A stretch of DNA of 63,962 nucleotides, the filler included, from Choristocarpus tenellus KU-1152 (lineage: Eukaryota > Protista > Phaeophyceae): the NCBI GenBank assembly GCA_964200185.2. It is 12 parts of 12 records of this genome, joined end to end, with 100 filler letters (N's around TTAATTAATTAA, not from the genome) between each part and the next. Parts side by side here need not be neighbours in the genome. Positions count along the whole stretch, not along the records: positions 45,685 to 51,100 come from CAXNAD020010849.1; 11 more parts are not named here. One strand, given 5' to 3'. Position numbers and translations under genes: made by a program. The notes under the pieces are model-generated. The model saw nothing but the letters and a program-made list of their open reading frames with translations. It was not told where the DNA came from and searched no databases. Below are positions 3,694-59,404 of the stretch, in pieces (within the stretch, counting starts at the first letter, position 1; each line of letters begins with the position of its first letter).

Positions 3694-5080
3694 ATGCTTC
3701 ACCCAACCATCTTCAGAAACGTCGTCAATCCTTGTCCTAAACGAACGTTCATAATGCACGGACTACGGTTCACCTTTGTCACATCAGTGTTTGCAGGACT
3801 GACCCTCATCGATTTTTGTCGATCTATAATGCTCAACAACAAAACAGAATTGGAAGGGACGTTCGAAAAGCTAGATCGATCCTTTTCCCAGTCAAGCCTC
3901 AACTCTTCCCTTGAAGTCATTCATAAGACAGTCTACAGTGATAAACTGCGCCTTATATTCTTCGCTGGCCTGGAGGGTACTGGTCATCATTATTGGTATC
4001 AAGTTAATGGTTTGTGTTTAGGGAATAAATGGTGCACCACTAACTGCGAACTATCGCACGCGCTATACCCTGAATTAGCGACAGCGCCAACATTGGCTGA
4101 GTACAATGGTGCAATTGAGAAGCTTGAACACGGCCTGGATGACCTGAAAAAGTTAGAGGATGAGGTTGCTGTTGGGAATAGGTCAGAAAGCAATGGATTT
4201 AATGGATTGATCGTCCCAGTCAATGCAGCTCCCTGCGGATCTACAGGCATGATGTCCTATCCAAACTATGGTGGTGTACACAAGGCTTTGCAGTACGTGA
4301 ATATTATCCTCCTAGCGCAGATGAGCGAGGAGAAGGGAATTGATTTACGTATCATCTACCTCCAGCGCTCTTCAGTAGATATTATCAGGTGGGATGATCA
4401 GTTTTGGAATCACTTCACTAATTAGCCGCTCCCTCTCGTCGAATTGTCTCTTCCTCTTTCAGCTGAAGGCCTTCTCCGCGAAGATGTTGAGGGGTAGGGA
4501 GAGAATATCCCTTTCTGGATATATCGTGCTCATTATTTTCTTTGTTGTTGGACGCTTTAAAAAGGTCAACAGAATCGACCTCACACTTGATTTTGTCTCG
4601 CCGTTAACCCACCCCCTACTTTTAGCTTCTGAGGTGTGTTGGACGTCTTGAATTCACATTGCCGTGATTACCACTTGTGCCCCATGAGAGCGAAATATTT
4701 CTCCAAGTAATGATAGGTATTGCGTTGATTGTGCAAGGCATGTCGGACTATTACGGTAACCCCCTTCCCTTCACTCCCTTCTCTCTGCTGTTCCCACCCT
4801 TTGTGTATGTGTCATCCTGCTATTTGCCTTTTCAAGATCTGATGATAGGAGGGGTTTTGGTGGAGGTTTCATGACTGAGTCCAGGACCCTCGGAGTAGAT
4901 GCGAATGCCTTGTCGTACATGCTCTCCAACATTGACTCGAAGTTCGTGGAGTGCTTTAATTTCGCCGTGACTGACGACCCCGAGGAATTCTTGAGGATTG
5001 CGACATTCATCTCTCCAAACAAAGGCATTGCAGATGAGATGACAGCTGTCCTTGAGGAGACATTTCACATACCCAGGTGA
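3694..5080 (+). CDS. Sulfotransferase-like (P-loop) protein with N-terminal signal/anchor; exons ~3694/3754-4389 and 4837-5076/5080
   Basis: LIFFAGLEGTGHH resembles a 5'-PSB-like motif; DLRIIYLQRS strand; hydrophobic N-terminus; GT-AG join CAG|gtggga...ttcaag|A keeps frame into RSDDRRGFGGG. Confidence 0.7.
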
Positions 5081-5655: not shown

Positions 5656-6152
5656 AACTGAAAAGTAGGCAAATTTGGACCCTTTTGCATTCCAATCTGT
5701 CTTTCTTAACCCTATGCAGCATACTCTATTTCATTCCTTTAGGTGCAAAATAGTGTACGCAGAATTGGAGTCAAAGTGTCTTAGAGGGTAGGGTCATGTC
5801 CATTTGGGGACAAAATCCAATGTTGTGATTTTGATGTAATTTTGGCTATTGCTTTTGTTAGGAAGTGTCATTATCCTTGTTCGGACACACCTTTTCATAA
5901 TGCATACATTTTACATACTCTGAAACATTTTGTAGTAGGTAAAATGTCATAAAAATCCTGTTGGAAGCCAAGCCCCAAATGGACAAACAGGGCAAAAATC
6001 GTACCCTCTAAGATAATTTCAATCTTCTTCCCCCATCACGCCCACAAAGTGACACCGCAATTAAGCAAAGGCTCTTTTGGCAATGGTGCAAAATGACAAA
6101 CTTTATTCTTTCTCGGGACCCTTAAAATGCAACACTATCTACCTATCAATTG
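5656..6152. mobile_element. MITE family C copy interrupted by a family A insertion
   Basis: 5656-5767 plus 6025-6152 align with the uninterrupted copy at 23969-24209; family TIR consensus CA(A/T)TTGAGAGGTAGGC ... GCCTACCTCTCAATTG, degenerate in this copy. Confidence 0.7.
5768..6024 (-). mobile_element. MITE family A, inverted copy
   Basis: Reverse-complement similarity to 2223-2481; ends GAGTCAAAGTGTCTTAGAGGGTAG ... TACCCTCTAAGATAATTTCAATC. Confidence 0.85.
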
Positions 6153-8428: not shown

Positions 8429-9194
8429 CTGATACAATCATTGCTTTCATCATGGGTTGTCATAGTTGAGACAAAGATCCAAAGGTTCACACGGAGGCAT
8501 CATCACGCACAGCCTTTGTCAAAGTACAACACCTGAAATTTGCTGATCCACCACTTTCACCAGTCACTCGGTAGATGCATGTAGGACAGGCTGGTCAGCC
8601 TATTCAGAAAAAATCTCCATTATATCAGATTCGCGGAGTGTCCGTTTATTGAGTTCTACTTTAGACAGGCAGATAGTTCTTGTTCTAAAGCAGCACCCCA
8701 TCAGGATAGCGTTTTGATCATTTATGAGAAGGTGATATAGAGTATACTCAAATTCATTGTTTTGGTACATTACAATACTTAGGGCTAGGGTTAGTACTTT
8801 GACCTCAAAAATATTGTGTCAATGTTAGTCTGATACTAACATTCTGAAATTGCTCGGCATGGAGATTAAATTGGACCACACAAATGAACTTGAAGTACAC
8901 TGCTGATAGCTCAACTCAAAAGTTGTTGGTGAGGTGTGTTCATACTGTGAGTTACCAAGGTTCCTGACTGATACATCGTCGCTACTGCTCTGGGTTTATA
9001 ACAGCCGATCACCAAAATTGAGGATGGAGCATACTATGGAGGATGGGTTTGACCCAAAATGGTGNNNNNNNNNNNNNNNNNNNNNNNNNNNNNNNNNNNN
9101 NNNNNNNNTTAATTAATTAANNNNNNNNNNNNNNNNNNNNNNNNNNNNNNNNNNNNNNNNNNNNAAAAACAAACAAATGTTTTTTTCTGGGGCC

Positions 9195-9227
<33 letters not shown>

Positions 9228-10112
9228 AGATACTTTGACCCCTTAGCCTATTGCTCTTGCCGGTCACCTGCCCACAGCATCACAGCGAGGGGGATCCGAT
9301 CCTGGCAGGAGCTGTGTGATACACACGACAAGCCTTTTGCTACCAATAGGAGTCAGCACGTAGAGCCAAAGCATAAAGGTCAAAGTGCACAAGAGATCCA
9401 GCAAAACAAATGCATGTTGCAACACACGCATTGGACATGTGGATGCCAGCACAACTCAGTGTCCAACGCAGGGTGTTCCGCCTAGGGCACACCAAACCTC
9501 TTGGCCCAAGCAAGTCTTCGTAACAAACTATCCAACCCCAGTATCATACACTCCATAGGATACGAAGAATCTTTCAGATATACTTTAGAAGAATATAACT
9601 CTACATGTATTTTTTTGTTCATATATGCTCTTCCATATACCCTACCCCCTAACCACACGCACACGCATACACACACACACAAATATAGTCGAATACCATC
9701 ACATCTTCTCATTTCAAATTTCAAATTTCACAACACCCGTGAACATTGTTTCAATAGAGCACATTCACAGATCGCTGAAGTCAGCGACATCTCCGTGTGT
9801 ATCTGGCGAGCTTGTATTCGCCCTAGTCGTTTCAGTTTAGCAGCAGAACAGCATGGCAAAGTCGCAGGGGTAGAAAACCAATAGGAGAGAGGGGGGGAGA
9901 TGGTGGGGTAAGAGAGGAGTTCCGTCATTTTCCTGTTGCAGCAAAATGCCAGGGGAGTATGATTATCGATACTGAGTGCTTTGTAGTGATGAGGAGGTGT
10001 AGGATTGGGATACCAATGTTAGCCAGATGATGATAGCAACCAGAAGCAAGATAGCAGTTCCACATAAAACACCCGCATTCAGCTGCACACTGCTGTACAA
10101 TACAAAGCATAC

Positions 10113-10545
10113 CTGTTCTCGGTGTGGTCTTGGGTGTCACTGAGTCCATCACCCTCCCCCGACTGACGAGGGATGGAGGGTCCTCCCCCATTCCTGGTCT
10201 GAAGGAGGAGTTTGTAGACCAATTCCGAGAGCTCACGGATCCTCTCCTTTGTGTTCTTCTCCTCCTCTGGCCCCATGGTGTTGCTTTTCGCTCTGGCCTT
10301 CAGGTGAGTGATTTCCAGGTTGATCACGTCCACATTTAATGCGGCTGTGTTCGTTGGTACCCTAGATGAGGCTGTGTGATTTCCCCCATTCTTGGTCTGA
10401 AGGAAGAGTTTGTATGCCTGTTCTGAGAGCTCATGGAGCCTCTCCATTGCACTCTCCTCCTCCTCTGCCCCCATGGTATTGCTCTCCACTTCTGCCTTCA
10501 GGCGAGCGGCTTCTAGATCGATCTTGTGCATGTAGAATGTGTCCA
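10113..10545 (-). CDS. Unknown protein exon containing two tandem 66-aa helical repeats
   Basis: Stop-free; KIDLEAARLKA..NTMG.EEE...ER..ELSE..YKL.LQT.NGG occurs twice 198 bp apart; donor AG|gtatgc. Confidence 0.45.
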
Positions 10546-10930
10546 TGAAGCACAACGCAATGGGAATGAGGAGGGAGTGAGGATGCACGGTGCTTTGGGG
10601 AGCATTAATGGTAGAAGAGAGCACGGTCATTCAACAAAGGGTTGGGATGCAATGCAACGTGGTGTTACCTGATCCCTATATTTTCATATGTTGAAACTTC
10701 CCACCTCAAAACGACTGCAGCACGAATACTTCAAGTACTACATTGCATGACATTAGTAGCAGTATGAAACACATCTTAGTGATCAACAAAACAGTGGAAA
10801 AATTGTAGTAAGCAGTTCCCACCTCCAAGGTACGCCAATGGAGGTAGTATCAGTGGAGGAAAGACTGGAGTGATGACTATCAGCATTACAGAAGAAAACA
10901 CTTGAGTCACATTCTACAAATCCCAAAGGC

Positions 10931-13055
10931 TCAGGCCTCAGTGCAAATGTGTGTGTGTGTGTGTGTGTTATTATGTTTCCATAATATTGAGCCCTGGGCA
11001 TTCACAACCTCACTTCCACTCCCCCATAAAATTTCTGGTACCCCAATCAATAGTTGAGGGTGCCTGGGAAGTTCTTGGCAGTCACGTTTGAGCGTCTTGA
11101 AGCATTTACAGAACGATTTAATCTCGAACTCCCCCTGACTTGGTTTAATGGAACAATTCTGCTTTGAAAAATTCAACGTCAATCCAATTCCTTCCAGCAA
11201 ACATCTCTTCTTGTCTTTTGTTGACGAGTGATAAACGGTAACTCCACTGCGGCACTAATATCATTTTCTCTTCCCCTGCAGCACTACCTGCATCAAGCTG
11301 AGAACACAACAACAGCCCACCACGTACCTCTGTGTGCTTGATTTCCCAGAGTCTGTCAGACAGCACTCGAGAGGAAGATCTTGTCTGCATTTGGGACTGA
11401 GACGGTGCCTGAACATTGGTTGCCTTTCCCGTCCTTGCCTTTTTTGTTGTGGCAGGACGTTCGGGTAATACCACTTCGCTACCTGGTCCGGGTGCACCAC
11501 AGGTCAAGAATCCAAGTTGGCTATGTTGGCACTTTAGGAACGGAAAAGGGCTTCTTCTACTAACTGTTCCTAAGAAATACAACAAACAGGTGTCTCCACA
11601 AGAGCTTGCACTGCTGCAAAGTATATGCAAGGAAGTGCTACCATGTTAGGCATGTATCTTGTTCCTCTCCAAAATGTCTCCCAATAGCGGGAACGATTTG
11701 GTTCCAACCAGTGCGGTGGAAGGGATACCACGTACAGGAAGAGAGATCTTCCCATTGAGGCCTAGAGTACTACCTCTCACCAGATGGATATGAATATTTT
11801 GAAAGACGAGAATCACATGTCCACGAACCCATACCAAGTACAAGAAGAAAGCGCTACTCCTGGTTGAAGGGTATTGTATGCATGTCCTACCCTCCTCCTC
11901 CTCGACCTCACCTCTCTTCCCCTTTGCCTTCTGTCTCTTACGCTGTGGAGAAGGAGATGCCACCTGTTGAGAACGACCCCTGTGGTCTTTCCTCTTCAAG
12001 TGGGCACCTGAAAACCGACTGCTGCGTCTTGGCTCATGGGGCACTGCTGGGGTCTGGAGGCTGTGGGTAGAGTCGGTCGCCATTGTTGGTGTCGACTCTC
12101 CAAGATCAGGCAACTCAACCTTAACTGGGACGTTGGATTCAAAACCTGTGCCCACAGTAGCCTTTTCCTCCTTCACTCCACTTGCAGTGCCCCACAACAG
12201 AGATGGTCTGGCATGGTAACCTGCGGTAGGTATTTCCATCGGCTCGAGTTTGATGGGTATCACCAAATCGTAAAGAACACCTCCCCCCGTGCTGTCAGGG
12301 CCAACACGTGACGTAGATTGAGCAGCAGAACCGGTCCCAGTCTCCACTCCAGACGAAAGAGGCAAGGAATGATGGCGGGCTTTCCCTTTCCCCTTTCCTC
12401 CGGCAGCCTTGCCCTTACCTTTTCCCCTCCTTGCACCCTGGCCACCCTCAGAGGCCTCAGCAGGAATCACTTCAGCTTGTGACCAGCCCTCTGCTGAAGG
12501 TTGCAGTACATATAGAAGGAGATGACTGTACATTGAAGGTATGAGGTTGAGGTAGGGTACGTTGCCTTGGTGGACTGCAACGACGGTAGCTCCTGGGGGA
12601 ACAACCACAACAAATCTGGTGGCAGTGGGGAATGTATTTGTTGCCCCGATGGTGCCGATTGTGATGGCAGCCCCCACTGTGTGCAGAGGCAGGTGCTGAC
12701 ACATAGAAGGATCATTGTCCAAGTAGTGGACATGGCCTTCATTTACGGCAACAACAGTACCACCTGGGGGAACTTCCACTACAAATCTGGTGGAGACAGG
12801 GTACTCATTTGTTGCCTCATCAATGCCGAGTGCGATGACTGGCCTTCCTGCTGCTTTTGTTGGTATATTCACGGGGCGTGACGAGGAGCATGGGGGTCCA
12901 CCAATGTTTGGTTGATGTGCAGGGAGAAGATTTGGTATATGTTCGATTTGCTGCACTTAACAAGAGGGAGTCAACTTGGCAAGCAAATAGACCACGCTCG
13001 GGTGGCCCAATTCTGAACAAGTGGGAGAGTAGCAGCTACTCAGCCGTGCCATCTT
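10931..13055 (-). pseudogene. Long degenerate reading frame (>600 codons) with a 2x57-aa internal repeat and a basic low-complexity region
   Basis: The 436-aa ORF (11646-12956) and 161-aa ORF (11145-11630) share a frame across a single TAA; another TAA lies at ~12957-12959; probable frameshift into the 10931-11200 frame. Confidence 0.5.
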
Positions 13056-14014: not shown

Positions 14015-14232
14015 TGTTTGGGGTGGTGAGAAAGGAATATCGGCAATCCAATCTCGTCTTACTGTCGACGTAGATACGCGATGTTTAGTGGGTGTGTGGG
14101 GTGGCGAGAAAGGAATGTCGGCAATCAACTCCCACCTTACTGTCGACGTCGATACGCGATGTTTAGTGAGTGTTTGGGGTGGTGAGAAAGGAATGTCGGC
14201 AATCAACTCCCACCTTACTGTCGATGTCGAGA
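14015..14232. repeat. Tandem repeat, 78-bp unit x ~2.8
   Basis: GTTTGGGGTGGTGAGAAAGGAATGTCGGCAATC...TTACTGTCGACGT.GATACGCGATGTTTAGT repeated. Confidence 0.9.
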
Positions 14233-25130: not shown

Positions 25131-25316
25131 GGCTCAAAGTATCTGGGGGGGGGGGTGGCGGCTATCCATTCCAGATCCATTTTTCCATGTCGCGATTTTT
25201 GGGTGGATTTGGTTGCATGCGTAAGATGGATAATGTAAGTGAACTTCTCCTGGTCAGGGCCCGAATGGACACCCCGGGGTAGAACCCCCCCCCTCCCCCT
25301 CAAGATACTTTGAGCC
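25131..25316 (+). mobile_element. MITE family B, complete copy
   Basis: Perfect 14-bp terminal inverted repeat GGCTCAAAGTATCT ... AGATACTTTGAGCC flanking G and C runs. Confidence 0.85.
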
Positions 25317-26389: not shown

Positions 26390-29300
26390 GGGGAATCTTC
26401 TCACCAAGGAACGCCAATGGGTCTCCTTCAACTCCCTCGTCAAGAAGCACAGGGGGAAGGGGTTGTTGTAGGGGGGTCATGTGCACTACCTGGCTGCTGA
26501 CAGGGTCATAGACCCACTGAAGAAAGAAAAAAGAACACATAGAAGTAGTTTAACATAAGAGGTTGGGGACGGGTGAGCAGTGGCATACAGCGGTGAATGG
26601 AGGTGAAAGGTGTTGGCACATGCCAAGGGAGGATGCAACAGCCAGGTGGTGGGGAGGAGGGTTGCACTATGTAGAGTGTACCAAACATTGTAGCTGGGGA
26701 GTGGTACAGGATATTGGAAGCCCTAAAACGAACTCCTCTCCAATTTCAAATACTCGTAAGTATTAGTACCATCCCAGACTTGAATTGTCATCTGAGCATG
26801 CATTTTGTGTATGCCACAAGCAGAGTCAGGGATTTAGAGTGGTACAAAACCAAGTGCTGACGGTTCCTGGTACAAGAAAAATGAACGCATACACACCTTT
26901 CAATGTTCCACAATCCATTCACAAAGCCATAATCCACTCTACACCCACGGTCGCAAGACTTTGTGGACTGTGCCAATAGCATGGATGGTCCTATTCCCAG
27001 CCACAACCCTCTCTCCCCGCCCCCACACCCAGAGCCTAACTTTCTCTTTCAAACACTAGGCTATCATACTTCCTCACTGAAAAAAAATTCTATTACCTGG
27101 TGGCGAAAGGTCAATAGCGCTCGTTCAAAGTCAGCTACATATCCTTTGGGAAACAGCCTTGGGTTTGCCAACTTTACTGCACGAAGAATCTTTGGTACCT
27201 GAAATGAGGGCACACAATTGATCACCCAGAGGGAACATCAAGGGGAGTGGGAGGTCAGCAACTGTACCACAAACACGTTTTCTAATATGCTTTGAGCTCT
27301 GGGGCAAAGGTCGTGGTCACAGAGCTACAGATGTAGGATCCTATCTCCATTCTCTGTGAGTATGCCATTTAGAGGAAGGGTAGATATGGTGGGGTGACAG
27401 TGGACAAAGGATTTCGCCAGGAAAATAGCTCCACAGCTCCATGCCCATTTAGTTTCACAGCGAGCTGGCTTCCAGTCTCATCTAATGCAATTATAAAGAT
27501 CTACTGTGAGGCAATATACATGCATGGTGGTTGAGGGCATTCTGCTGTTTCTAAACAAGGAGTAGATGGGCAAGAAGATAGTCAATGGAGAGAATTTTTT
27601 GATGACAAGGGCAGCAGATCCTGCAGTTTGAAGCTGAAGAGTCCAACCACAACTTGGCTTAAGACCGTGTACTAAGCTCACTTCCTTGTGCCTCTTGACG
27701 AGCTGATAGGCCTTCTTAAGGCCCACACCATGCACAGAGGGGAGATAATCACATCCTGACAGGGCACATAAGGTCACCAATGACTCCTCTTTCATGCCCC
27801 GCAAGTCCAGCTCATCGTTCCTGATGTAGAATGAACAGAAAATACACACAAGTACACACAAGTACAAACATGGATTCGGGGTATCAAGCATGTCCACAGG
27901 CAGAAGGAGACACAGCAAAGCCGGCAGAGTCAGGAAATAACCAGATTTTTACTGTGTGAACAAGAGTGGCAGCAGTGTGCGTGCACGCGCGTGTGAGATT
28001 GGTGAAGAGGGTGATTGGGGTGTGTTAATGAAATAAACTCACAGATGTCTAGGGAATTTGGCCAACCTCCTATAATGAACAAGTCTGATGTATACTGGGT
28101 GTACTTGATGGGAAAAACACCCACAATATGCCCAAATCACTAATGAAGTGGTTATTGGGATAGGATTCACCAAATCCTTGGATGTGATTTCAAGCAGCAC
28201 CTCTAGCGTAGTTTCCGAGATGCCACAGATGTAGCAGGGACAGGGATATGTTTCACTCATGATCTGATAGTGATTTGCAATAGGTCTCCAGGTAAAGTGG
28301 TCCATTCCACTGGACTTCGAGACAAGCTATTTCATATGGAAAAATGCAAGGATGGTGGAGGGACAGAGGGAGGGAGTGGGGGTGGTGGGAGATAGCTTGC
28401 CTGGTTGAAAAGACATCACGGAGGTCCACCATTTGCCCATGCCCGTCTCTGTCCAACTTGAAGAGAACACGTGAGCAGCCAAAGAGTAGTATGTCAGAGT
28501 CTTCGGTGATCACCGCATCCACGAGGTTGTTCCTTGCGAGGAAGCCCAGCTGAGCATCGGCCTCATATGGGGCAACCACATAATTAATTCCAGGGATGCG
28601 CTTAATTTCCTGCAGGGATGAGAGGAGATGAGGGAGTTCACAATGGATTGCTAGGATTCAGGTAGACCAAGGGATAGCAGTAGAGCAAAGGGAGTTGGGG
28701 TGTTCAGGTGAACCAAGGAGTAGGGATAGAGCAGCTATTGGTGTGGGTGCCAAAGTCTCCAGGTGCGTGGGAGTCGAGAGCAGGGTTCGAGGTGAAGTTG
28801 CAGATTGCAGCTTGAACTAGTATGTACTGGTGGGTGGGTCATAGTGTTCTATGCAACCCTCTCCTTGCGGCCCAACACCAAACCTAATCAATGGTTATCA
28901 CAGCTTACAAAACAGGCGAAAGAGGGGGCTGGTCTGTATTCTGTTGGTAACAGAACTTGGTGTAACTAGCTTGAAGAGAGGAGTGGAGAGGGAGGTAAGG
29001 GTTAGACTTGCAGTGGAATGCACAAATATTTGGCAATTGGGCAAGGGAGTTGGTGTTGTGTGGAGCCTGGAGGTAAGAGGGTAAAGGTTCACATCATTGT
29101 CCCGAACACAATCTACGAGACCCCAAAAAGGTTACACAACTCTTGTCCCCCCTTTCTTGCAAGGAGAAAGCAGTTTGTGAGACCGGGGGGGCGTGCTGAG
29201 ACGTCGAGTGAATCTCCAGTGGATTCTCATGTTTTCTGCTTACAAATCGGAAGTAAACCAGGAAAAGCTCAAAACTCTACCCCAATAAAAGCTCCCCGTG

Positions 29301-30812: not shown

Positions 30813-31758
30813 CAGTAAGGTGACTCTCGTCATATCCATACCAATCCTGTACACCTTGGGCATCTTACACCTTGGTCGTCATCTCCCCCCATTCTTGCAG
30901 AGGCACCAGCGCGTCGTCCCCTGTCTAGGTCGGGGCAGTAATTTTTCGTGCGGCTGTCTTTGCTACACATGTAACAAACTATGCGCCCCTTCCAGTGCCC
31001 CTTTCTTCCCGAGGAACTCTTTCCCACACTCGCAACCAAAGTATGGCCACTCCCAGTGGACTTGCCCATATTAATCGTTTGCAGGTCTTTATACCTCGCC
31101 ACCACCATATCTTCAACCTCCTTCACCGTCTTCGTTTCCCCGAAATTTACGAAGCTCTTGACTTGGGAGTAGTTCTCCTTACGCTTGTTGAGAATCGTGG
31201 CCACCTTTGTCTCTTCTGCTATCACCTCTCCCATCGACTCCAGTCTCGTAGTTAAGCTGGATAGTTCAGTCAGTCCTGGCGACGGGTCCTTCCTATCATC
31301 AATCGTAAGTTGACCGAGCTCCTGGCGCACGCGCCTTGCCTCCTGGCGGGTCTTTGGCACAAACGCCACATCAAGGGCGTGCCACCCTGCACTTGGAGAC
31401 CCAGGCGCGATGAACACATGTAAGGCACGGTCTTGCAGCATGATCAGCATGAGTTGTCACGCTTTCTTTGCCCATGTAGTTGCCAGTCGGAGGTTGGCGT
31501 TGCTGGCCATAACAGGAACAGGTACTGTTGAAGGTCGCTCGAAGCTGTTGCCTTCATCACTCAACGACCTCGGTGATTCCACGTCCACTGCCCAGATGGG
31601 CCCACCATGATGATGTCTTGACCATGCAGAGCGGTTTCGCAGTCATGAACGCCAAGCGTAGCCTGAGCCGGAACCACGAAAGCATAAAAGTCTTCGCCCA
31701 ATTTTCCAGCGAACGTGGGCAGTGATGTTACCTTGGTGGTGTTGTTGGTTGCAGACAT
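30813..31758 (-). mobile_element. Ty1/Copia gag remnant (frameshifted) with degenerate zinc knuckles
   Basis: UBN2-like helical gag; CYMCSKDSRTKNYC and CPRC knuckle-like motifs; adjacent to TG..CA LTRs. Confidence 0.8.
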
Positions 31759-37714: not shown

Positions 37715-40054
37715 CTTATAGGACACCAGACTCTCTCCTGCATTCTTCAGTCGAATGAATGGCACATGTTCTGCTTCGGAGCATGGTTCATACACACTTC
37801 GGTACTTGGAAATGCGCTCATAGAAGTCGTGCATGGCATCCTATATTTGCAGGTGGTGAAATAGGAGAATAATAATGTTCAGTTGCCAACATGGACATAG
37901 GGTAAGTAAGGTTGTAGGGTGTAGATGTGAGTGTAAGTATCTTAGAGGGTACGAGTTTTGCCCTGTTTGTCCATTTCGGGCTTGGCTTCCAATGTTTTTT
38001 TTAATGGCATTTTGCCTACTCCAAAACATTTTGGAGTAGGCAAAATGTGTATGTTACGAAATGGTGTGTCCGGAACAAGGATATTGACACTTCCTAACAA
38101 ACATGATAGCCAAAATTACATCAAAATCTCAACATTGGATTTTGGCCCCCAAATGGACGCGGTTCTACCCTCCTAGATACTTCGTCTCCATCCTATTGAC
38201 CTATTTTGGCATAGGGACTACTCGATAGGTGATAAATATTGCTTGTTGTGCCATCTCCCATACTCCACATTTTGGTAATATTGTAAAGACCCCATTCAGC
38301 AACACTTGAACCACTGTCCCTGCTCTTGAAAAAATATCACTATGCACCTCTGGGTCCCACCCTGCATAGTCTGGTGAATGGAGCTTGACTTCCTTGATGT
38401 TATTCCACACCAATGCATCATCATCACAGACTAGCTCCAGGAACACAAGGCGTACACCTGATCCTCTCTCTATATTCGCTCTCGTGTTGACTCTTTCTCC
38501 TTCTGAATAGTTCTTTCTCCCCTCCTCATTTACAAGGTTCAAGCGTTTTTGTACCTCTGACCGAAGCCACAGACGTCTCTTCTTGGTGCTGTTTGTTGCA
38601 TCTGGGAAACACACGCCACTGTTATGTTAATGTGATTTTGGTTTTCTTGACTGGTACATATTCAAGGGACTAGTGCATGCCATCAGTTGGATTCATCATC
38701 TGTAAATACAGCAGATGGGTAATTTAACAGAGGAGTAAACCTGATGGATGAGCAAAGTGCTTGGACTCACCCAACACAGCGACATATGAGCCTTTGCGAA
38801 AGCTCTCGAGAGCATCGTCAAGGGCCATTTCAGCGCATTTCTGGCGTATATGCATCCCCTCTGTATTGTCAGGGTCGAAAAGACTTGCAGAGGCATCAGA
38901 CCCCAAGATCTTTCTCCTGTAGTTACCAGCATTGAATATCTTAGCTGGTATTCCAAGCCATTCCAAGTGCCGTGTTGCAGTCTTAGCAACATACGTCTTG
39001 CCCCTACTTCCACACAATACATTTTCCAGAAAAGTTCGGCGCGAGGGGATACCAAATTTCAAGACAGAAAATTATTGAGTGGACGGAAAGGAGGTACCTA
39101 ATATATGTATGAACAATACCTGGTCACAGATGACAGGGCTTATACAGGATGAGAAGTATGGCATCCATGGAAGCACTTCAAAATATGACGACGTAATCCA
39201 AACAGCAGAAGTATTTTTTATAGTAGTGCTTGCCTGGCAGGTAACCCAACCATGGCCAGGAGAATTTTATCTTGTCTTTGCATAGCATATTGGGAAAGGG
39301 AGAGACTCCTTGGAGGCTGGTCTGGAGCATGAACTACCGGAACTGGCATTGCTTTGGCTGACATGCAAAACGCACTGGCAGTTCGCCGAGCAATAGCCTG
39401 CAGTGTGAAGCAGTGGGTCAGATATCAATCGCATTGTACAATTTTCGGGAGAGTTCTATACAATGCATTCACTCAACCCCATCCTAAATCAATTAATTAT
39501 ATATCACAGGTCGAACTGCGATTTGTCAGCTGCGAATTGCTAGGGAGTCCATAACTCGTTCAAGGCCCTCGCCATTCAACAGAGTTGGGCACAGTTCGCA
39601 CAGGGTCACCTTGGTCCTGTTTGGGTTCACATTCGCGTCATATTCTCGGTCGTTTACAGTCTTGTCAGCAATCCTTGCCCTCATGAAAAGCGAAGGTATC
39701 TCCTGCTGATCGCAAATATCGGTTGCAAATTTTGAAGAAGGCAATTCCACTTCCGCACTGCTTCCATAGCCATTCTGGGGTTGGCTGGCACCCCCCTCAG
39801 GTGAGGCCTGGCGATCATCTAGATTGCATTTATCGTCCTGGACACCGTTCAGCCTTTCTGGTCGTTCGGGCAGTGTGTGCCACCTTTTGCCGCATGAAAC
39901 ATTGATCTGCATGGCAATATAAAGATACTATGGGTCATCGTTTGGACAAATGCGACTTCAGATCAGACTTTTTTTTACTTTCTCGCATTACCTTTTCCCA
40001 TCCAATGCTTCCCCCTCTTGGTCTGAATGTCATGTTGGCCTCATCTTCGGACAT
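37715..40054 (-). CDS. PFKFB: 6-phosphofructo-2-kinase / fructose-2,6-bisphosphatase, 5' part; exons 40054-39992, 39906-39610, 39397-39234, 39003-38771, 38601-38348, 37840-37715
   Basis: MVGLPARGKTY P-loop, FNAGNYRR, DATNST..RR, FLE..C.D, K..SPDY and DF..RI..Y...YEP motifs. Confidence 0.92.
37929..38188 (+). mobile_element. MITE family A inside a PFK-2 intron
   Basis: GAGTGTAAGTATCTTAGAGGGTACG ... TACCCTCCTAGATACTTCGTCTC. Confidence 0.85.
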
Positions 40055-44700: not shown

Positions 44701-45684
44701 GGTAAGTACTTCATGGAAGAGAGTTGTTCAAGGACATGTGTGGTTTTATAAGCCAAGAAATTCATGTATAGTTGGCATTATTATGTCAAACTCTCCATGA
44801 CCATACCTCGTTGGTAGTGGTCCTAGTATAGACCATAGTACATAAAGTGAGGTGATAGTTGTAACTCAAAATAAGTAATACGTATGTATGTGTGTGTTCG
44901 TGTGTCTTTTTTTGCTCAAAGCAATTTGATTAAGTCAATTGAATCTAAGCATTTTCACTTTATGTGGGTCAACACAAAGAGCTGAACATTGCAAGTGGCC
45001 GTGAGGAGAGGTTGTGCAAGAAGTTAAAGAGAATTGGACCTTGTGCACATACACGAGAAATCAATGGACTAATTTAGAGAAATGTATAATTTTGGTGTCG
45101 GTTAGTCCTTGATTTTAAAATGATATGAGCAAAATTGAATTGTTCCTATCAGCAACACTAGTGGCAGCTAGATATATACCCCCCCTGTCCCATAAGTCTG
45201 GGCCGTGAAGTGTAGATCTTCAAACTGACCTCCAAGTACAAAACAAACCTTTGCGTTGGATTCCTTGGAATACTTAACACTAAAAACATTATTTCTTGCC
45301 CTTATTCTACGCCGTCAACCAACCAATCCAGGGCCACTGCAGAGACCACTCAATCTACTTCAACTGATCTAGTTAGCCCTCCCTCCTGCTGCCTTTTTTC
45401 GTCTCGGTGAGCTCTACCTCGAAATCATTCCCCCCGCCCTTAATACCTGATTGTCCTCTTAGACAAACTCTGCCACAACCTCTTGAGCGTGTCTGTGCCG
45501 TACGCATGGAACATGGTCGAAACCCCCTGTAACAGCCTCTCACCAAAATTGAGGATGGAGCATACTATGGAGGACAGGTTTGACNNNNNNNNNNNNNNNN
45601 NNNNNNNNNNNNNNNNNNNNNNNNNNNNTTAATTAATTAANNNNNNNNNNNNNNNNNNNNNNNNNNNNNNNNNNNNNNNNNNNN

Positions 45685-45826
45685 CCAAGCCCATCAAACG
45701 TATACATTTTACCTACTCTAAAACATACCAATGAGACGGAAAATGTCCTAAAAAAATCCATCATGTGCGAAGCCCCACAAATGGATAAACAGTGAAAAAT
45801 TCGTTCCCTCTAAGATACTTTCACTC
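45685..45826 (-). mobile_element. MITE family A, partial at contig edge
   Basis: Ends CCCTCTAAGATACTTTCACTC. Confidence 0.8.
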
Positions 45827-48800
45827 ATTCCATACCACATTCACCTCGATCTGGTAGCCGTAGCCCGTTGCCACCGCCTTTGCTACGAGTATGGTCGCCT
45901 CATCGCGTCCCATCGCCATTCCCTGAGGATGGACAGCCTCAGCGAAACATCGCTGCGTCTCCATTGGGACGATGGAGTGCCCTAAGCTCTCGGCAGGCAG
46001 GAAGGGCCTATCACGCGTTCTTGAGCGAGAGACGTGGCTACCTGTAGCATCACGTGCGTATATGTGACAGTCCAACAATGTGGCAGTGAAGTGGGTTAGC
46101 CATGAGAAAAGGTTTTGTCATATATGTATGGGTTAGGGTTAGTTGGTTAAGGATGTTGCGATGTACTGTAGCATGTTTTTATATTTTTGTTTGTGTGGGA
46201 ATGGGGACATTACAACGTACCGACGATCACAGCAAAGACTTGGGGACTCGCGATTTCCAGCGGTGGTGTGGGTAACTGCACGAACAAAGTTGGCTACGTG
46301 TAAACATCTACAAGGAAACATCATCATTACAATTGCAAGCTCGAGACCTATCCGTAGGGTTAGTAGTACAAACAACAAGTTGGAAAGCAATGGAAAAAAA
46401 AGCCAGCACACCCTTCTTACCTTCCACTTGCCCTCCCCGTAGGCTTGGCCAAAGGACCTGTCCATCCTCTACTTCACCTTGTCCTTTGACGCCGCGTTGG
46501 ACACGAACACCTCCACCCTCCTGCTCCGTTCTAGAGCCACCTCCACCACATTGTGCCTCTCTGCGCTGTAGGAGACATCGGTGTCCCCAGTGTTCGTGTA
46601 CCTAGCGTGGGAGGACAGTTTGTAAATTAGCCCTAACGTGGTACATTGTATTGCGCACAGATTCATCATTTCGCAGTGTATGTGGTACGTTCCGATACAG
46701 GGCAACACGCTCTTTGTGTGTTTCGACGCTTAACGTACCGATTCGTAAACTCGTGGTGTGGATTGACGCCCCTGAACCGTCACCCAGCTCGTTCTGTTAC
46801 TGTTTAACGATGTCCTACATATTCTACAAAAAAAATAAATCGCTGCTTCTGTGAAGAAGGATGTGTGTGACGTTATTAACGAACCTGTTAACAAGGAAGT
46901 TGAGGGCCCTCATGGGGATGTCCGAGGCAGCACCTTCGTATTCGACGTCCATCATGGATTGGAGTACAACAGGAGATGTATCACGCCCGTGTCCGAAGAT
47001 GTCGTCGATAGTGACTCGTTTATTGCATGCGAACATTGTTCTATCGTTGTGCGTGAGACAAATAATGTCCTGGTGGCTTTTGAGATGGTTATCTGTGCCT
47101 AATTGAGGGCGATCCCCCCCTCCTCGTCTTGGATATTAGCATTAGGGGATGATCCTCCAAAAAGAAGCCCACCTTTGACGCAGTAAGAGCCTCTGAATGA
47201 AGAGAATGCGGGAGGGAGCGCGTGAGTGCGACATGCGTCGAACTTGACAGTGACATCACACAAGTAGTCATGGTAGGGATTCATGAAATCTCGTACCACT
47301 AACATTATAATAGTACAATGAGTATGGAACGCAAGGGCAATAACCAATGCAGAAATTGCAAACAATAGGAGATTGAGTAATAAAAGGAGTAAATATGGCA
47401 AAAAAAAGTGGTGAACACGAGTAACACCAGCATGTGAGAGAATGGAAAATGAAACAAATAACATTGGTACTTGCTGGGGGGGGGGAGAGAAAGCGACACA
47501 AAAGGAAGTGGAAGGTATAAAGGACATGAAACAACATGGGAAAAGTGAAGAATATAGGAATACACAGGGATTCATGGAATCTCGTGCCACTAACATTATA
47601 ATAGTACAATGAGTGTGGAACGCAAGGCAAATAACCAATGCAAAAATTGTAAACAATAGGAGATTGAGCAATAATAGGAGAAAATATGGCAAAAACATGT
47701 GGTGAACACGAGTAACACCAGCATGCGAGAGAATGGACAATGAAACAAAGAAGTACGTACTTGCCGGGGGGAGAGAGCAAGCGACACAAAAGGAAGTGGA
47801 AGGTATGAAGGACATGAAACAACATGGGGAAAGTGAAGAATATAGGAATACACACGACCTAATCCTCATCTACTGAACGATCGCACAATATTCGATCGGC
47901 ACACGGACGGAATGATAACAGTCATAGTTGATTTCAATAGTCTCCCGCAATACACCCCATATTTCAGCGCTAGCGAACTCTGCAACTCACCGTTTAGGCA
48001 GTGCAAATGCACCTTCCACGGGTGGGGCACCAAGAGCGCGATGGTGCACTGAGGATGCATCTTAGGCCGCAAGCATTGAAGCATATCGCGCAGGTGTGTG
48101 TTGGTTGCCTCTTCGTCAATGAGGAGTCTTGGCTCGGCGGCAAGAGACACTATGGCGAGCTTTGGCGCGTTGCGGAAGGCGAAATCACCAAGTTTGTCTA
48201 AGGATATCGTGGGGCCGAGAGGGTGAAGGTCGTGTAGTGCAGTGTTCTCACTCCTGTTAGGACATCATGACATACGACACAGTAGACGGACAGCACAACA
48301 AGAAGGACAACGCAATGGATAAAAATGAGAGCAAAGAAAAGGACCACAATGGACTTACTGTCAATGAACATAGCAAGGCAAACTTGACAACAACTTCATA
48401 TATCAGAATAGTCATCAGGCGGTTATGGAACAACGAAAACACTCCGTCACCCACCGTTGGCATCTAGCCTCTCTTCTGTTTGGTTGAACTCTATGTAGAT
48501 CTGCATGGTGAAAGCGCGCTCGGGATCAAACAATCTCTTCAGCACCGTTATCCTATGGTTTCTGTCCAATACTCGCCCTTCGATAGCAAGCGCTGTTTCG
48601 TCGTTCAGTTGGTCCATATTACCTAAGCCTTCTCGCTGGACGACAACACTCGGGGCAAACTGGTCCAGCCAACCTTTATCATTTATTGATTTCGTCACGC
48701 GCTCGAGGCCCCGCCCACTCAGGGGACGCACCATATCCGTGCATGTTATATGTCCCAGCTTCATTTTAAATGGCCCCAGATAATGATCATCAAATGGCCG

Positions 48801-48893
48801 GGACATGCTAGCTTGGCGTAGGTCCTGGCTTCTGGGTTCCCAACTTTTCCCATCGGCGGGCGGGTGGGTTGTTGTTCTTGAAATGTTCGGCAT
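45827..48893 (-). pseudogene. Spliced ParB/Srx-domain plus degenerate N4/N6 DNA-methyltransferase-like gene; exons 48893-48451, 48253-47991, 47192-46885, 46601-46432, possibly 46041-45827
   Basis: Exon 1 reads VRPLS...V..SI..KGW....P.V...VLDRNHRI (ParB DGNHR-like). Later exons read IPMRALNFLVNRYTNTGDT...VALERSRR, like the beta-class MTase C-terminus. Splice phases are consistent. One frameshift in a G7 run (~47114-47120) and a TAG at 46469-46471. Confidence 0.6.
47274..47855. repeat. 291-bp tandem duplication inside intron 2 of the ParB-MTase-like locus
   Basis: GGGATTCATG(A/G)AATCTCGT...GAATATAGGAATACACA occurs twice. Confidence 0.92.
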
Positions 48894-49209
48894 GACAAAG
48901 ATTTCGATCCTAAAAACTCAGATTGCACATTTTTTATGAGATTCGCGTTACAAGAATACGAATATCAAACAGCATCGGATTTCATATTGAACTGAGACAG
49001 AGGGTGTCTGTTTTTTCGTGACCCTTTCGTCCTACTATCACGTTTTGAATGTATGAGATCAATAAGGATGTGGAATGTATCTATGTTTGTTGGTGTAAAG
49101 ATGAGAATACCATTCTACTTTTGGAAAAACCGTACTGCACATGTTCTGAGTGTTCAACGGTATTCATTCTTACTGGAAAAAGGAATACGTTAGAACCGCT
49201 TCTTTATGC

Positions 49210-49405
49210 TATCTATGGTTTAAATAAACCTTAAACACACCAAAAGTGGATTTGAGGTTTATTTAAATAATTGGTGCCATTTGGAATGACCTCTTAGGTT
49301 TCTGAAATTGAAACGTTTGAGACCCCTAAAGTCCGTCCTTAGGGTTAAAATAAACCCTAATCACGGTCTTCATTGGTTTACGGTTTATTTAAACCCTAAC
49401 GCACT
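49210..49405. mobile_element. Small foldback/MITE-like element
   Basis: GGTTTAAATAAACCTTAAAC and GTTTACGGTTTATTTAAACC form an inverted pair, with inner GGTTTATTT/AAATAAACC repeats. Confidence 0.5.
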
Positions 49406-49536
49406 TGTAAAGTGACTTGTATCGAATGCATTCTTAGTGGTGCGAACGTTTACATAAAGTGACTATTATTATCGACTTGCACGTTTATGACAAGCGCTGT
49501 GTGACTCAGAGCAAGTTAGAGGTTAGGGTCGAGTCT

Positions 49537-50298
49537 GAGTAAAGTATCTTAGAGGGTACGAGTTTTGCTCTGTTTCTCAATTTGAGGCTTGACTTCCGGT
49601 GGGTTTCATTTTGACACTTTCCTACTCCAAAACGTTTTGGAGTATTGGGTAAAATGTAAATGTTACGGAAAACTGTGTCCAGAACATGGACATTGATACT
49701 TCATAACAACCAAAATGACCAAAACTATGTCCTAAACTATATGTTGGATTTTGGCTCCCAAATGGACGCGACTCTACCCTATAAGATACTTTGGCTCTCT
49801 CTTTGTTGTGTGTTTGGGGCAAATTCCAATTCTGCGATTTTGATTAATTTTGGCCTGTTGTGTATGTTAGGGAGTGTCAATATCCTTTTTCCATACACAC
49901 CTACTCTAATTTATTCAGGAGTAGGAAAACGTCTTTAAAAAATACATGTGATGCCAAGACCCAATTGGACAAACAAGGCTAAAAACGTACCCTCCAAGAT
50001 ACTATCACTTATCATGTCCGATTTGGTAAGTTTCTGAGCTGAGTGAAAGTAACTTAGAGGGTACAAGTTTTGCTCTATCTGTCCATTTGGGGCTTGACTT
50101 CCCTCGGGGTTTTTATGATATTTTCCTACTCGAATATATTTCAGAGTAGGTAAAATGTATATGTTATGAAAAGGTGTGTTGGGAATAAGGACATTGATAC
50201 TACCTAACAAACACGATAGCCAAAATTACATCGAAATCGCAATATTGGATTATGACCCCCGAATGGACGCGGCTCTACCCTCTAAGATACTTTGGCTC
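49537..50298. mobile_element. Cluster of three MITE family A copies (49537-49797 +, ~49810-50010 -, 50041-50298 + with TSD AGCT)
   Basis: TIRs and internal similarity; AGCT at 50037-50040 and 50299-50302. Confidence 0.85.
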
Positions 50299-50367
50299 AG
50301 CTTCAAATACGTAGAGGGGGTTGTTTTTTGTCTAAACCTGGTTACTTAAAGTGGAAACGTACAAGAT

Positions 50368-50972
50368 TAATTAAGTATGTGATTGATATCTTCAAAAATA
50401 CAAATCACTCCTGATATAATTGTATTTTTTGTAGAAATATAATTAACGGAAATTATCTGATTTACAACTTCTGAAAATGTGACGCACGGATTTTCAAGAT
50501 CGGTGGGATCGAAAGGGTGGTTCCACTGATAGCCCGAGGATGAAACAAAGTTGACTTCGGAACATTGGAAATGTACAATAACAATGAAGTATGTGTTTGG
50601 TGTCTTAAAAAATACAAACACTGATACATCTGGAATTTACAAGAATAGAAATCACTGATATAATCTGATTTACATCTTCTGAAAAATGTAACGCACGGAT
50701 TTTCAGGATCGGTGGTATGGAAAAGGTGGTCCCATCTATCACCCAAGGACGAAACAAAGCTGATTTCGGAACATTGAAAATATACAATAACAATTAATTA
50801 TGTGATTGGTATCTTAAAGACTATAAATCACTGATATAATTGGATTTAAAAAAAATAGAAATCACGGATATAATCTGATTTACAACTTCTGGAAAATGTG
50901 ATGCACGGATTTTCAGGATCGGTGGGATCGAAAGGGTGGTCTCACCGATCATGAAAAGGATAAAACAAAGTT
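50368..50972. repeat. Tandem repeat, ~210-bp unit x ~2.9
   Basis: GCACGGATTTTCA(A/G)GATCGGTGG recurs at ~50484, ~50693 and ~50903. Confidence 0.9.
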
Positions 50973-51200
50973 CATATGCTCGTCTTCAAATCTAATAACT
51001 CCTATACCTTCTCACTACCTCCCAAGACCGCCTGTTGCTGGAAAAGACCATGCCAGTTGCTTCCACAGCAAGTGGATGGCTTGTGTCGCCTACGTCTCCC
51101 NNNNNNNNNNNNNNNNNNNNNNNNNNNNNNNNNNNNNNNNNNNNTTAATTAATTAANNNNNNNNNNNNNNNNNNNNNNNNNNNNNNNNNNNNNNNNNNNN

Positions 51201-53180: not shown

Positions 53181-53383
53181 GACCCAAAGTATCTGGGGGG
53201 GGGGGAAGGGGGTCTACACCAGGGTGTCCATTTTGGGTCATAACCAGGAAAAGCGTACTTACATTATACATCCGATGAATGCACAACCTAACACTAACCC
53301 TAACCCTAACACAAAAAACCACGACATGAAAAATTGGGCCCAAATGGACAGCTGCCCCCCCTACCCCCCAGATACTTTGAGTC
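53181..53383 (-). mobile_element. MITE family B, complete copy with 4-bp TSD TGTT and an internal CCCTAA run
   Basis: GACCCAAAGTATCTGGGG ... CCCCAGATACTTTGAGTC; TGTT on both sides. Confidence 0.85.
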
Positions 53384-56629: not shown

Positions 56630-57570
56630 CCTACAGTCCAGATTCGAATTTACCAGTTGTTTCCACCAATGATCGATATATCTCCTTGTTTCTTTTGAGG
56701 ACGAATCTCCAAAAGTCGCAAGAAAATGTCAGAGTCAGTTCATGTTTGACCTAATTCAGAGTATACAGTTACGAATATACCCTCAATAGATCAACAGATA
56801 TCCTTGTTCTCTTTGAGATAATATTTCCCAAAGGTCACGGAATACCATCAGAGTCAGTTTGCATCTGGTCCAATCCGAGTATGCGCTTGTAACTTTTTGT
56901 TGGTCGAGTTCAAGAGTTGCGAAGCATACATCTCTGACGTGGCCTAGAAATGATGGGTGTCCGATTCCAATCTCCCTAATCATATATGTGATTATTGTAT
57001 ATCCTTGTTTCCTTGGGAAGTGTCCGTCCACAAGGTCACAGGATACAATCTCAGTCAGTTTGCATCTGGCTAATCCGAGTATACACTTGTTCCTTCGAGG
57101 ATCTGATTCAAAGGATACAAGGCATACATCTCTGACTTCGTCTACAATTAATGGGTCCCCAGGTCCAATCTTCCCAATCACAACTGTTATCAATGTATAT
57201 CGTCGTTTCCTTTGGGAGTGTCCCTCCTACAAGTCACAGCATAAAATCATCGTTAGTTCGCATCTGGCCTTATCTGAGTATACACGTACTCCTTCTGATC
57301 CACACCTTCAAAAGTTACAAAGTATATACTTCTGACTTGGCCTACAATTAGTGGGTCCCCAGTTTCGATCTTCGCAATCACCACTGTGATCAATGTGATT
57401 TTTTTCTTCCTTTGGGAGAGTCCCTCCTAAAGATCACACAGGATATAGTCACATTCAACTTGCATCTAGCCTAATCTGACGGTACACTTGTTCCTTCTGA
57501 ACCACATCTTCAAACGTCACAAGGCATACACCTCTAATTCGGCTTACAATAAAAGGGTCCCCAGTTCCGG
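56630..57570. repeat. Degenerate tandem repeat, ~201-bp unit x ~4-5
   Basis: AGTCAGTTTGCATCTGG.C.AATC.GAGTATAC recurs at ~56850, ~57053, ~57253 and ~57455. Confidence 0.8.
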
Positions 57571-58447: not shown

Positions 58448-58672
58448 GAGTGAAAGTGTCTTAGAGGGGTATGATTTTTGCCATGTTTTTTCATGACATT
58501 TTACCTACTCCAAAAAGTTTTCCGCGTAGGTAAAATGTATGTTATGAGAAGGTGTATCCGGAACAAGGATGTTGACACTTCCTAACAAACACGATATCCA
58601 AAATTTTATCAAAATCACAACATTGAATTTTGGGCCCCAAACGGACGCAGCTCTACCCTCTAAGATACTTTG
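58448..58672 (+). mobile_element. MITE family A with internal deletion
   Basis: GAGTGAAAGTGTCTTAGAGGG ... TACCCTCTAAGATACTTTG. Confidence 0.8.
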
Positions 58673-59404
58673 AAGAACGATGTTTGCACTACCCTTTCAG
58701 CAACTTTCAAAACCACATAAATCAAAATAGGCAACGGTCATTCACAGAATGATTAAAAAAAAGGCATTTCTAGACGTTTTTCTTCCTTGGAGGGTGGGGT
58801 TACAAACTATCAAGATGCTAAAATCACTACCTCAAGCTCATCATAGAACCGGTCGGTGATCATAGAACGAGAATGACTGCCTTCAAACTGCAACACGAAA
58901 CTGCAGTGAAACAACCCATACAGGGTATCTATCACATCACAGATGGGATGCTTCCCTCTCCAAATCCAATGAAGAAATAATTTCAACAGTGAGCGAGATG
59001 ATTCTCACCCCCGCAGTGTGGGACTAGAAAGGACAAAAATATGATGGAGCATTTCATGTTTCAACTCTCTCTCCCCCCCTCTCTGAGACATGATAGTGAA
59101 TTGGCAACAAGTCATTTAAAACTCCATCAGTTTCATCTGTCGAACAAAACATCGACATATCCTGACTTTATAGGACATGTACAGCTTGGTCAGCAACACA
59201 GTATGCCCATGTGAGAAATCATTCACATTATTGTCAAGACTCCTTACACTGTCTCAATAATCGGTCTGTCTTACTGCAATACCTGGGCTAAACAATTCCT
59301 GCAGTTGCAATCTCTGAAATTAGTCAATTTTTCTAACGGGCTGCTCTACTAATACTATCAAAATAACCCTAACCCTTTGATTCCCAACACCATGCCTATC
59401 TCAC

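What the first reader, a model, noticed from the sequence alone, without database searches (positions are those of the whole stretch)
45827..48893. Intron-containing ParB-methyltransferase-like fusion in a eukaryotic genome
Seen in the sequence: four to five exons splice in consistent phase into one protein. The N-terminal ParB/Srx-like domain (VRPLS..V.KSI..KGW...PSV...VLDRNHRITVLK) is followed by segments that line up in order with beta-class N4/N6 DNA methyltransferases (PF01555 type). These are HLRDMLQCLRPKMHPQCTIALLV, FFLEDHPLMLISK, LKSHQDIICLTH and IPMRALNFLVNRYTNTGDT....VVEVALERSRR (compare KP..L...L...YT..GD.V.D.F.G.G....AA....R). The catalytic DPPY and SAM-binding FxGxG positions look replaced (LAIVSLAAEP, YSAERHN). 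Established knowledge: ParB-MTase fusions are typical of phages and prokaryotic mobile elements. Inference: a horizontally acquired or TE/virus-borne gene gained spliceosomal introns and lost catalysis, so it may mark an undescribed DNA-element or chromatin-protein family. This copy is probably decayed (DGNHR to DRNHR, frameshift in G7). The ORF track misses the fusion because it is split by introns.
Basis: partly seen in the sequence, partly recalled or inferred. Interest (0 to 1): 0.78.

Follow-up and report, generated by a model that had tools for sequence, protein, structure and literature searches.

The report
Brown-algal transposon helper with dead methylase
This is a broken copy of a much-repeated, intron-containing gene, likely from a brown seaweed and likely carried by a jumping gene, that joins a bacterial-type ParB-fold domain to a likely DNA-methylase fold lacking its catalytic motifs, so it would bind rather than mark its own DNA; the pairing itself was already reported in the seaweed Ectocarpus in 2025.

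Summary
Exon 1 has a ParB/Srx fold (structure Z 9.7) and 70 real homologues; the named ones are brown algal. Three downstream introns are spliced in related copies. Exon 1 is out of phase with the next exon, because this copy has lost middle exon(s). It also carries two frameshifts, a stop, a G-to-R change and a MITE at its 3' end. Thousands of diverged contigs cover the whole gene, so it belongs to a high-copy family. Exons 2-5 match beta-class amino-methyltransferases only moderately (E 0.009; 3e-4 with read-majority letters); no fold test was possible. DPPY and FxGxG are absent here and in related spliced contigs. Three like palindromes lie 320-505 nt upstream. ParB + N4/N6 methylase transposon helpers are published (Ectocarpus Sola1-1_Ec32), and this scan noted them repeatedly in plant DNA. 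What may be new is a family that lost both motifs while keeping the scaffold, likely a non-catalytic self-binding protein. No transposase or element ends were found. New variant of a known kind; interest 0.4.

The parts
48455..48893 (-). Exon 1, ParB/Srx-fold domain (146 codons); G111R in the DGxH motif; ends in a conserved phase-1 donor
   Evidence: 71 HMMER hits; AF2 pLDDT 85; ParB/Noc/PadC Z 9.3-9.7; motif counts
48254..48454 (-). Likely hybrid intron holding an internal deletion that removed middle exon(s); breakpoint probably near 48315-48329
   Evidence: phase mismatch; loose ends at 48329 (X1), 48315 (X4), 48455 (X3) and at 48250/48253; missing exons not in window
47991..48253 (-). Exon 2, likely methyltransferase motif IV-VI region; reads IVSLAAEP where DPPY/SPPY is expected
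   Evidence: hhalign; X3 joint 47192-47991 and variant 48144
47193..47990 (-). Intron (798 nt) with a 291-nt tandem duplication at 47275-47854, 91% identical
46885..47192 (-).
   Evidence: one base fewer in 21-34% of contig depth
46421..46601 (-). Exon 4, likely motif I region without DPFxGxG; in-frame TAG at 46469-46471
   Evidence: ungapped 58-column match with 11 identities; X3 loose end at 46883
45827..46041 (-). Last exon present, with a frameshift near 45986; the frame runs into the MITE
   Evidence: X3 joint 46038-46418 and insertions at 45985/45986
45685..45826 (-). End of a ~260-nt MITE, cut by the contig gap; supplies the last codon and the stop (45821-45823)
   Evidence: loose ends at 45826/45827
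49213..49399 (.). Three clear and one decayed 20-22-nt palindromes (consensus TTAGGGTTTA-nn-TAAACCCTAA), centres 39, 87 and 39 nt apart; candidate binding sites
   Evidence: cluster test 0 of 2000 shuffles
49536..50298 (.). Two full MITE copies (49536-49797; 50041-50298 with a 4-nt target duplication) and one partial inverted copy (49813-50009)
50369..50949 (.). 209-nt tandem repeat, 2.8 copies; link to the element untested

Best explanation
This is a dead, internally deleted copy of a high-copy, intron-containing gene that likely rides on a brown-algal DNA transposon and whose product joins a ParB-fold domain to a likely amino-methyltransferase fold that lacks both catalytic motifs, so intact relatives would bind their own element without methylating it. 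Shown: ParB fold, splicing in related copies, many diverged copies, the lesions of this copy, absent DPPY and FxGxG, a palindrome cluster upstream. Inferred: methylase ancestry (about 85%); transposon carrier (about 85%); loss of the motifs before this copy decayed, with the fold kept by selection (about 60%); the protein loads as a dimer on the upstream palindromes, as ParB does on parS, and coats or autoregulates the element (about 50%, untested).
For: ParB: every listed Foldseek row (31 of 31) is a ParB, Noc, KorB, PadC, sulfiredoxin, SbnI or serine-kinase chain or one unnamed archaeal protein; Z 9.7, rmsd 2.5 over 93 residues. Copies: 4528, 3473, 940 and 175 contigs laid over all 30 bins, most under 95% alike; one homologue cluster has 45 members. 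Splicing: CT..AC joints in X3 and none in X1, X2 or X4. Methylase: hhalign E 0.009 over 134 columns, 0 of 100 shuffles. With 23 read-majority letters E 2.9e-4, and 0 of 150 random-change controls reach it. The majority letters restore the conserved G of LKPxG and the V of GDxV. Motif loss: at least 9 of 15 base changes separate the window from DPFxGxG, while the flanks stay in ungapped register. All 11 X3 contigs at 48144 exclude Pro after the Ser, and 5 spliced X3 contigs read GDTVVS. Palindromes. Precedent: PMC12477816; bioRxiv 2025.02.11.637652.
Against: hmmsearch of exons 2-5 was not significant: 106 of 2000 shuffles scored as high. hhalign probability was only 4.5% (40% with majority letters), and the best block permutation nearly tied (23.22 against 23.34). 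Pfam, PHROGs and the Atlas gave nothing for the methylase exons. No full-length relative was found in three searches. No transposase or element ends are seen on the 5.4-kb contig. The frame-restoring indels occur in only about a fifth to a third of contig depth in most runs, so many copies may be broken too. No dN/dS test was possible. All read evidence is from one study, and only X3 speaks to the motifs. The plain count of palindromes is not above chance (134 of 1000 shuffles).
Confidence: 0.5

Rival explanations
1. Ordinary decay: the working protein is an active ParB + 4mC/6mA methylase in other family members, as proposed for Ectocarpus, and this window belongs to a long-dead non-autonomous subfamily that is copied and spliced passively.
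For: Frame-restoring indels are a minority of depth. One X3 contig appears to carry a stop in exon 2 (my reading of table 5c). Only contigs at least 80% alike were seen. The Ectocarpus paper says many giant elements carry pseudogenised genes and move in trans.
Against: Motif I differs at all five defining residues while structural flanks keep exact register, which neutral decay of 5-20% would rarely do. One X3 loose end in exon 3 shows four silent and two replacing differences in ten codons (read by hand).
Confidence: 0.3
2. The C-terminal half is not a methyltransferase; ParB is fused to an unrelated alpha/beta domain, as with the ParB + 2OG-oxygenase PAG3 of red algae.
For: Null results; low hhalign probability; both signature motifs are absent.
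Against: Collinear 134-column match. Only 2 of 51 natural control ORFs scored higher, and both look like other SAM-dependent methyltransferases by their motifs (recognised by eye, not scanned). Independent read-majority letters raise the score.
Confidence: 0.12
3. The gene is a host multigene family or part of an integrated giant virus, not a DNA-transposon passenger.
For: No transposase or element ends found; brown algae carry integrated phaeoviruses (own knowledge).
Against: Spliceosomal introns with a conserved position. No true relative in IMG/VR or JGI metagenomes: only motif-level hits in prokaryote-like contigs. Neighbouring contigs hold host genes and repeats.
Confidence: 0.08

Closest known systems
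Accessory gene of Ectocarpus Sola1-1_Ec32 (Dinatale et al. 2025, PMC12477816; seen: search passages, second part of section 5, supplement table rows; the two FASTA supplements could not be read)
   Same: Brown alga; transcribed gene; ParB-like domain plus N4C/N6A methyltransferase domain; proposed to bind its own transposon.
   Different: That protein is 1104 aa and is predicted to methylate; here about 470 codons remain and both motifs are absent. Its element has AACCG termini, 282-bp TIRs and a transposase; none is seen here. Orthology was not tested.
Plavaka accessory genes PAG2 and PAG3 of Bostrychia (bioRxiv 10.1101/2025.02.11.637652; passages seen, supplements closed)
   Same: Algal DNA transposon with a ParB-like gene next to arrays of inverted repeats, and a PF01555 methylase gene.
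   Different: There ParB is fused to a 2OG oxygenase and the methylase to a SET domain, in separate genes.
Bacterial ParB/Noc/PadC and sulfiredoxin (ParB/Srx fold)
   Same: Fold of exon 1 (Z 9.3-9.7 to 6ryk, 7ol9, 6sdk, 7bnk); palindromic candidate sites nearby.
   Different: Motif is DGNHR, not the GxxR arginine patch recalled for CTPase ParB; 12-15% identity; helix-turn-helix and CTP binding untested.
Phage ParB-terminase-locus methylases and chlorophyte-type Dam with ParB-type HTH (Iyer et al., PMC4738411; passages seen)
   Same: ParB-linked adenine methylases of mobile elements, some moved into eukaryotes; the paper also lists inactive transposon-borne methylase domains (DIRS1).
   Different: Different methylase clades and architecture; no brown-algal spliced form in the passages seen.

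Membership tests
ParB/Srx fold | Structural match of the N-terminal domain | tested here: met
ParB/Srx fold | Conserved DGxH(R) motif | tested here: met
   D 61, G 60, H 59, R 54 of 64 homologues; this copy has G to R
ParB CTPase clamps | Helix-turn-helix domain, CTP binding, spreading from parS | not testable with these tools
   middle exons missing here; single-sequence model of P0024 unusable, pLDDT 39.7
Beta-class N4C/N6A methyltransferase (PF01555) | Collinear profile match in the order IV-VIII, X, I | tested here: inconclusive
   hhalign E 0.009 to 2.9e-4 with controls; hmmsearch and Pfam negative
Beta-class N4C/N6A methyltransferase (PF01555) | Catalytic motif IV [DNS]PP[YFW] | tested here: not met
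   absent in the window read-through; Pro excluded in 11 of 11 X3 contigs at 48144
Beta-class N4C/N6A methyltransferase (PF01555) | SAM-binding motif I DxFxGxG | tested here: not met
   reads SYSAERH in register; 5 X3 contigs read GDTVVS
Beta-class N4C/N6A methyltransferase (PF01555) | Rossmann fold by structure | not testable with these tools
   the folding tool takes no joined protein and no intact relative was found
Algal transposon ParB-methylase accessory genes | High copy number, spliced gene | tested here: met
   (one study; run kinds not on record)
Algal transposon ParB-methylase accessory genes | Lies within an element with TIRs, target duplication and a DDE transposase | tested here: inconclusive
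   5.4-kb contig, no genome held; flanking MITEs face outward but are only 72% alike
Sola-type MITE (flanking repeat) | Short TIRs and 4-nt target duplication | tested here: met
   3 of 8 paired copies have an exact 4-nt duplication; 4-bp TSD fits Sola2 (PMC3627910, passages); GAG termini as a Sola2/3 trait is recalled, not from a call

The most novel reading that the evidence does not exclude
A brown-algal transposon family keeps, under selection, a spliced ParB-pseudomethylase: the enzyme died but the protein stayed as a sequence-specific clamp on palindromes in its own element. That would mean binding, not methylation, is the core job of the ParB-methylase helpers of eukaryotic transposons, here in a lineage reported to lack host DNA methyltransferases.
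Probability: 0.3. Interest if true: 0.65.

Novelty: new variant of a known kind. Interest (0 to 1): 0.4.

Why it matters
ParB-methylase helper genes have been proposed to mark their own transposons, but the two papers read offer this only as a proposal. A natural family that keeps the scaffold and candidate binding sites but has lost both catalytic motifs would separate binding from marking, and gives an exact 22-nt site to test. Brown algae are reported to lack DNMT1, DNMT3 and DNMT5 (PMC13076208, passages), so how their transposons are marked or shielded is an open question. If selection on the dead domain is not found, this is one more decayed copy of a published design.

Tried and rejected
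Word-indexed protein searches for longer relatives found none: exon 1, alignment A2, exon 3 read-through; these are weak negatives. Pfam on six pieces gave only two hits near E 0.1; on 65 alignment members, single weak hits to GmrSD_N, DUF6551, DUF1015 and three other families. PDB sequence search gave two phycocyanin chains, judged chance. PHROGs gave nothing useful; Rfam none. The Atlas for exon 2 gave no hit of 0.9 or more. Locus searches gave five prokaryote-like contigs sharing only the short motif, with no methylase in them; genome contigs was not scanned. No RNA holder was listed. Contig depth (exon against intron) was computed but is not used, since the tool says depth cannot rank parts of a gene or give copy number. 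The single-sequence model of P0024 was unusable. The palindrome pattern search is circular and was replaced by the cluster test; the pattern has no match in IMG/VR. Rejected: P0061 as a homologue (repetitive tail-fibre protein). Rejected: the flanking MITEs as proven element ends; other contigs join the MITE end to four other positions of the gene (one or two contigs each, short sides), which fits independent insertions. Paper searches for an inactive ParB-methylase in transposons found nothing (0 papers; only PMC12477816); the library lacks most subscription journals, and reference 50 of that paper was not read.

Full report
Setting. The window is 12 short contigs joined by 100-nt spacers; the finding lies on the contig 45685-51100, minus strand. 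No genome is held. The host is likely a brown alga: of 20 homologues looked up, the clusters with names gave Choristocarpus tenellus (2, one 81% identical), Sphacelaria rigidula (2), Ascophyllum nodosum (1) and one spurious tail-fibre protein.

Exon structure. Five exons with GT-AG ends are present: 48893-48455, 48253-47991, 47192-46885, 46601-46421 and 46041 onward. Four runs of one study hold related DNA; their kind is not on record. Contigs of X3 skip 47193-47990 (joints with sides of 28 and 111 nt) and 46042-46420 (2 contigs, side 41), and five contigs leave the window at 46883 and continue in the sequence of the exon at 46601. X1, X2 and X4 show none of the listed CT..AC joints. I infer that X3 is RNA-derived. 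These contigs are related copies at 80% identity or more, so they show that the family is spliced, not that this copy is.

The fusion is not intact here. The donor at 48454 is phase 1 and the acceptor at 48254 is phase 2, so the direct splice hits a stop within 20 codons. The phase-1 donor is the ancestral one: 45 of 59 homologues with a readable tail show the [GCSR][EK] signature of an unspliced xGT-GAG/AAG at the same place. Three annotated spliced relatives continue into a further exon, X3 reads the same exon at 48455 (2 contigs), and X3 enters exon 2 from yet another exon (loose ends at 48250 and 48253). Neither is in the window: one search found one 3-mismatch chance hit, none, and tBLASTn matched exon 1 only. 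Loose ends at 48329 and 48315 suggest the breakpoint. Further lesions: G111R (G in 60 of 64 homologues), the G7 frameshift, a TAG at 46469-46471, a frameshift near 45986, and a MITE whose terminal bases supply the last codon and stop. The G-run is one base shorter in 21-34% of contig depth, not in a majority, so other copies may share the break. Whether the TAG and G111R are shared could not be seen, because 616 and 79 variant rows were hidden.

ParB domain. HMMER found 71 proteins at E 0.001 or better, 31 at 1e-10 or better. I aligned 64 of the 71 with the window exon, leaving out six fragments or mixed ORFs and the tail fibre. The model has mean pLDDT 85. Foldseek gave no match under E 0.001, but its listed rows are ParB, Noc, KorB, PadC, sulfiredoxin, SbnI and serine-kinase chains and one unnamed archaeal protein. 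Re-alignment gave Z 9.7, rmsd 2.5 over 93 residues to PadC and Z 9.3-9.6 to Noc and ParB. The Atlas gave feature scores of 0.94 to clusters with ParB_N (11% of members) and DUF3723 (31%).

Copy number. 4528, 3473, 940 and 175 contigs lie on the 3.3-kb stretch, covering all 30 bins, introns included; in X1, 3244 of 4528 are under 95% alike. This indicates many diverged copies, though depth gives no count, and part of the total comes from the MITE at the left end.

Methyltransferase half. I built a 32-sequence alignment from E. coli YhdJ and 75 viral loci (74 hits, thinned at 70% identity). The exon 2-5 read-through scored -0.6 bits by hmmsearch, matched by 106 of 2000 shuffles. hhalign gave E 0.009, probability 4.5%, 134 collinear columns, above all 100 shuffles and all 80 block permutations, the best by only 0.1. 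Two of 51 natural control ORFs scored higher; both look like SAM-dependent methyltransferases by eye. Applying the 23 listed read-majority letters in these exons (14 residues) raised the match to E 2.9e-4 and probability 40%; 0 of 150 random 23-letter changes reached that score. Two of the changes restore the G of LKPxG and the V of GDxV. From motif X to the last helix the window aligns without gaps over 58 columns with 11 identities. Pfam, PHROGs and the Atlas saw nothing in these exons, and no fold test was possible. I put methylase ancestry at about 85%.

Catalytic motifs. In that register motif I reads SYSAERH for DPFxGxG, at least 9 base changes in 15, and motif IV reads SLAA, at least 4 in 12 from SPPY. 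In X3, 11 of 11 contigs at 48144 make the residue after the Ser begin with A, which excludes Pro, and five spliced contigs read GDTVVS. So the loss is not private to this copy. That it happened under selection for the fold is inferred from the kept register, not measured.

Flanks. Prompted by the Bostrychia preprint and earlier scan notes, I looked for palindromes. Three clear and one decayed 20-22-nt palindromes lie 320-505 nt upstream of the ATG, as two pairs 126 nt apart whose spacers have diverged (56 of 126 identical). The bare count is not unusual (134 of 1000 shuffles), but three like palindromes occur in 0 of 2000 shuffles and in 2 of 198 overlapping tiles of the window, both at this site. 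A ~260-nt MITE with mostly GAG...CTC ends flanks the gene on both sides; 3 of 8 paired copies in the window have exact 4-nt target duplications. No transposase is seen on the contig; its short ORFs in the repeats were not scanned.

What is known. Dinatale et al. 2025 (PMC12477816) describe a 1104-aa ParB-like + N4C/N6A methyltransferase gene in the 21.5-kb Sola1-1_Ec32 element and propose that such proteins bind and modify their own transposon. Its protein sequence is probably in FASTA supplements that could not be read, so orthology and the state of its motifs are unchecked. Red-algal Plavaka elements carry related but differently fused genes. Earlier notes of this scan list 17 findings with these words in at least 2 genomes; the 8 shown are in plant DNA and report ParB-methylase transposon genes, three of them with palindromes. 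They are unchecked and not independent support. Searches for an inactive version found nothing in papers or notes (one search returned none with all the words).

Verdict. A real, decayed and internally deleted copy of a known kind of algal transposon helper gene. The possibly new point is family-wide loss of both methylase motifs beside a candidate binding array. New variant of a known kind; interest 0.4.

Noticed in passing
window 2223-2481, 5768-6024, 25131-25316, 37929-38188, 49536-49797, 50041-50298, 53181-53383, 58448-58676: MITE family of 186-262 nt with ~25-nt terminal inverted repeats; 3 of 8 have exact 4-nt target duplications, Sola-like. A G-run variant occurs at several contig ends.
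   Followed up: partly
window 46042-48454: One X3 contig joins exon 1 directly to the last exon (side 30 nt); in the window sequence this splice is in frame to the end. Could be exon skipping or a more deleted copy.
   Followed up: no
window 49213-49399: The palindrome arms contain TTAGGG, a telomere-like hexamer (own knowledge); a host telomere-binding protein is another possible binder.
   Followed up: no
window 48450-48893: The Atlas links exon 1 to DUF3723 clusters of ascomycetes (0.94, 31% of members); the papers listed for DUF3723 are mostly on Starship elements (search listing only). A lead that fungal giant elements carry a similar ParB-like gene.
   Followed up: partly
window 27478-28657 (-): Exons of an XPG/Exo1-type nuclease (PF00867, E 9.8e-19).
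   Followed up: no
window 38201-38626 (-): 6-phosphofructo-2-kinase exon (PF01591, E 6.5e-12).
   Followed up: no
window 30830-31456 (-): Copia-type gag fragment (PF14223, E 2.9e-7).
   Followed up: no
window 3670-4425 (+), 10079-10630 (-), 11646-12956 (-): Open frames of 251, 183 and 436 codons without a Pfam hit; the second overlaps a 198-nt direct repeat.
   Followed up: no
window 14015-14230, 50369-50949, 56831-57568: Tandem repeats of 78, 209 and 198 nt.
   Followed up: no
window 8999-9053 and 45530-45584: Two contigs end in the same 55-nt sequence, 93% identical, probably a repeat that breaks the assembly.
   Followed up: no
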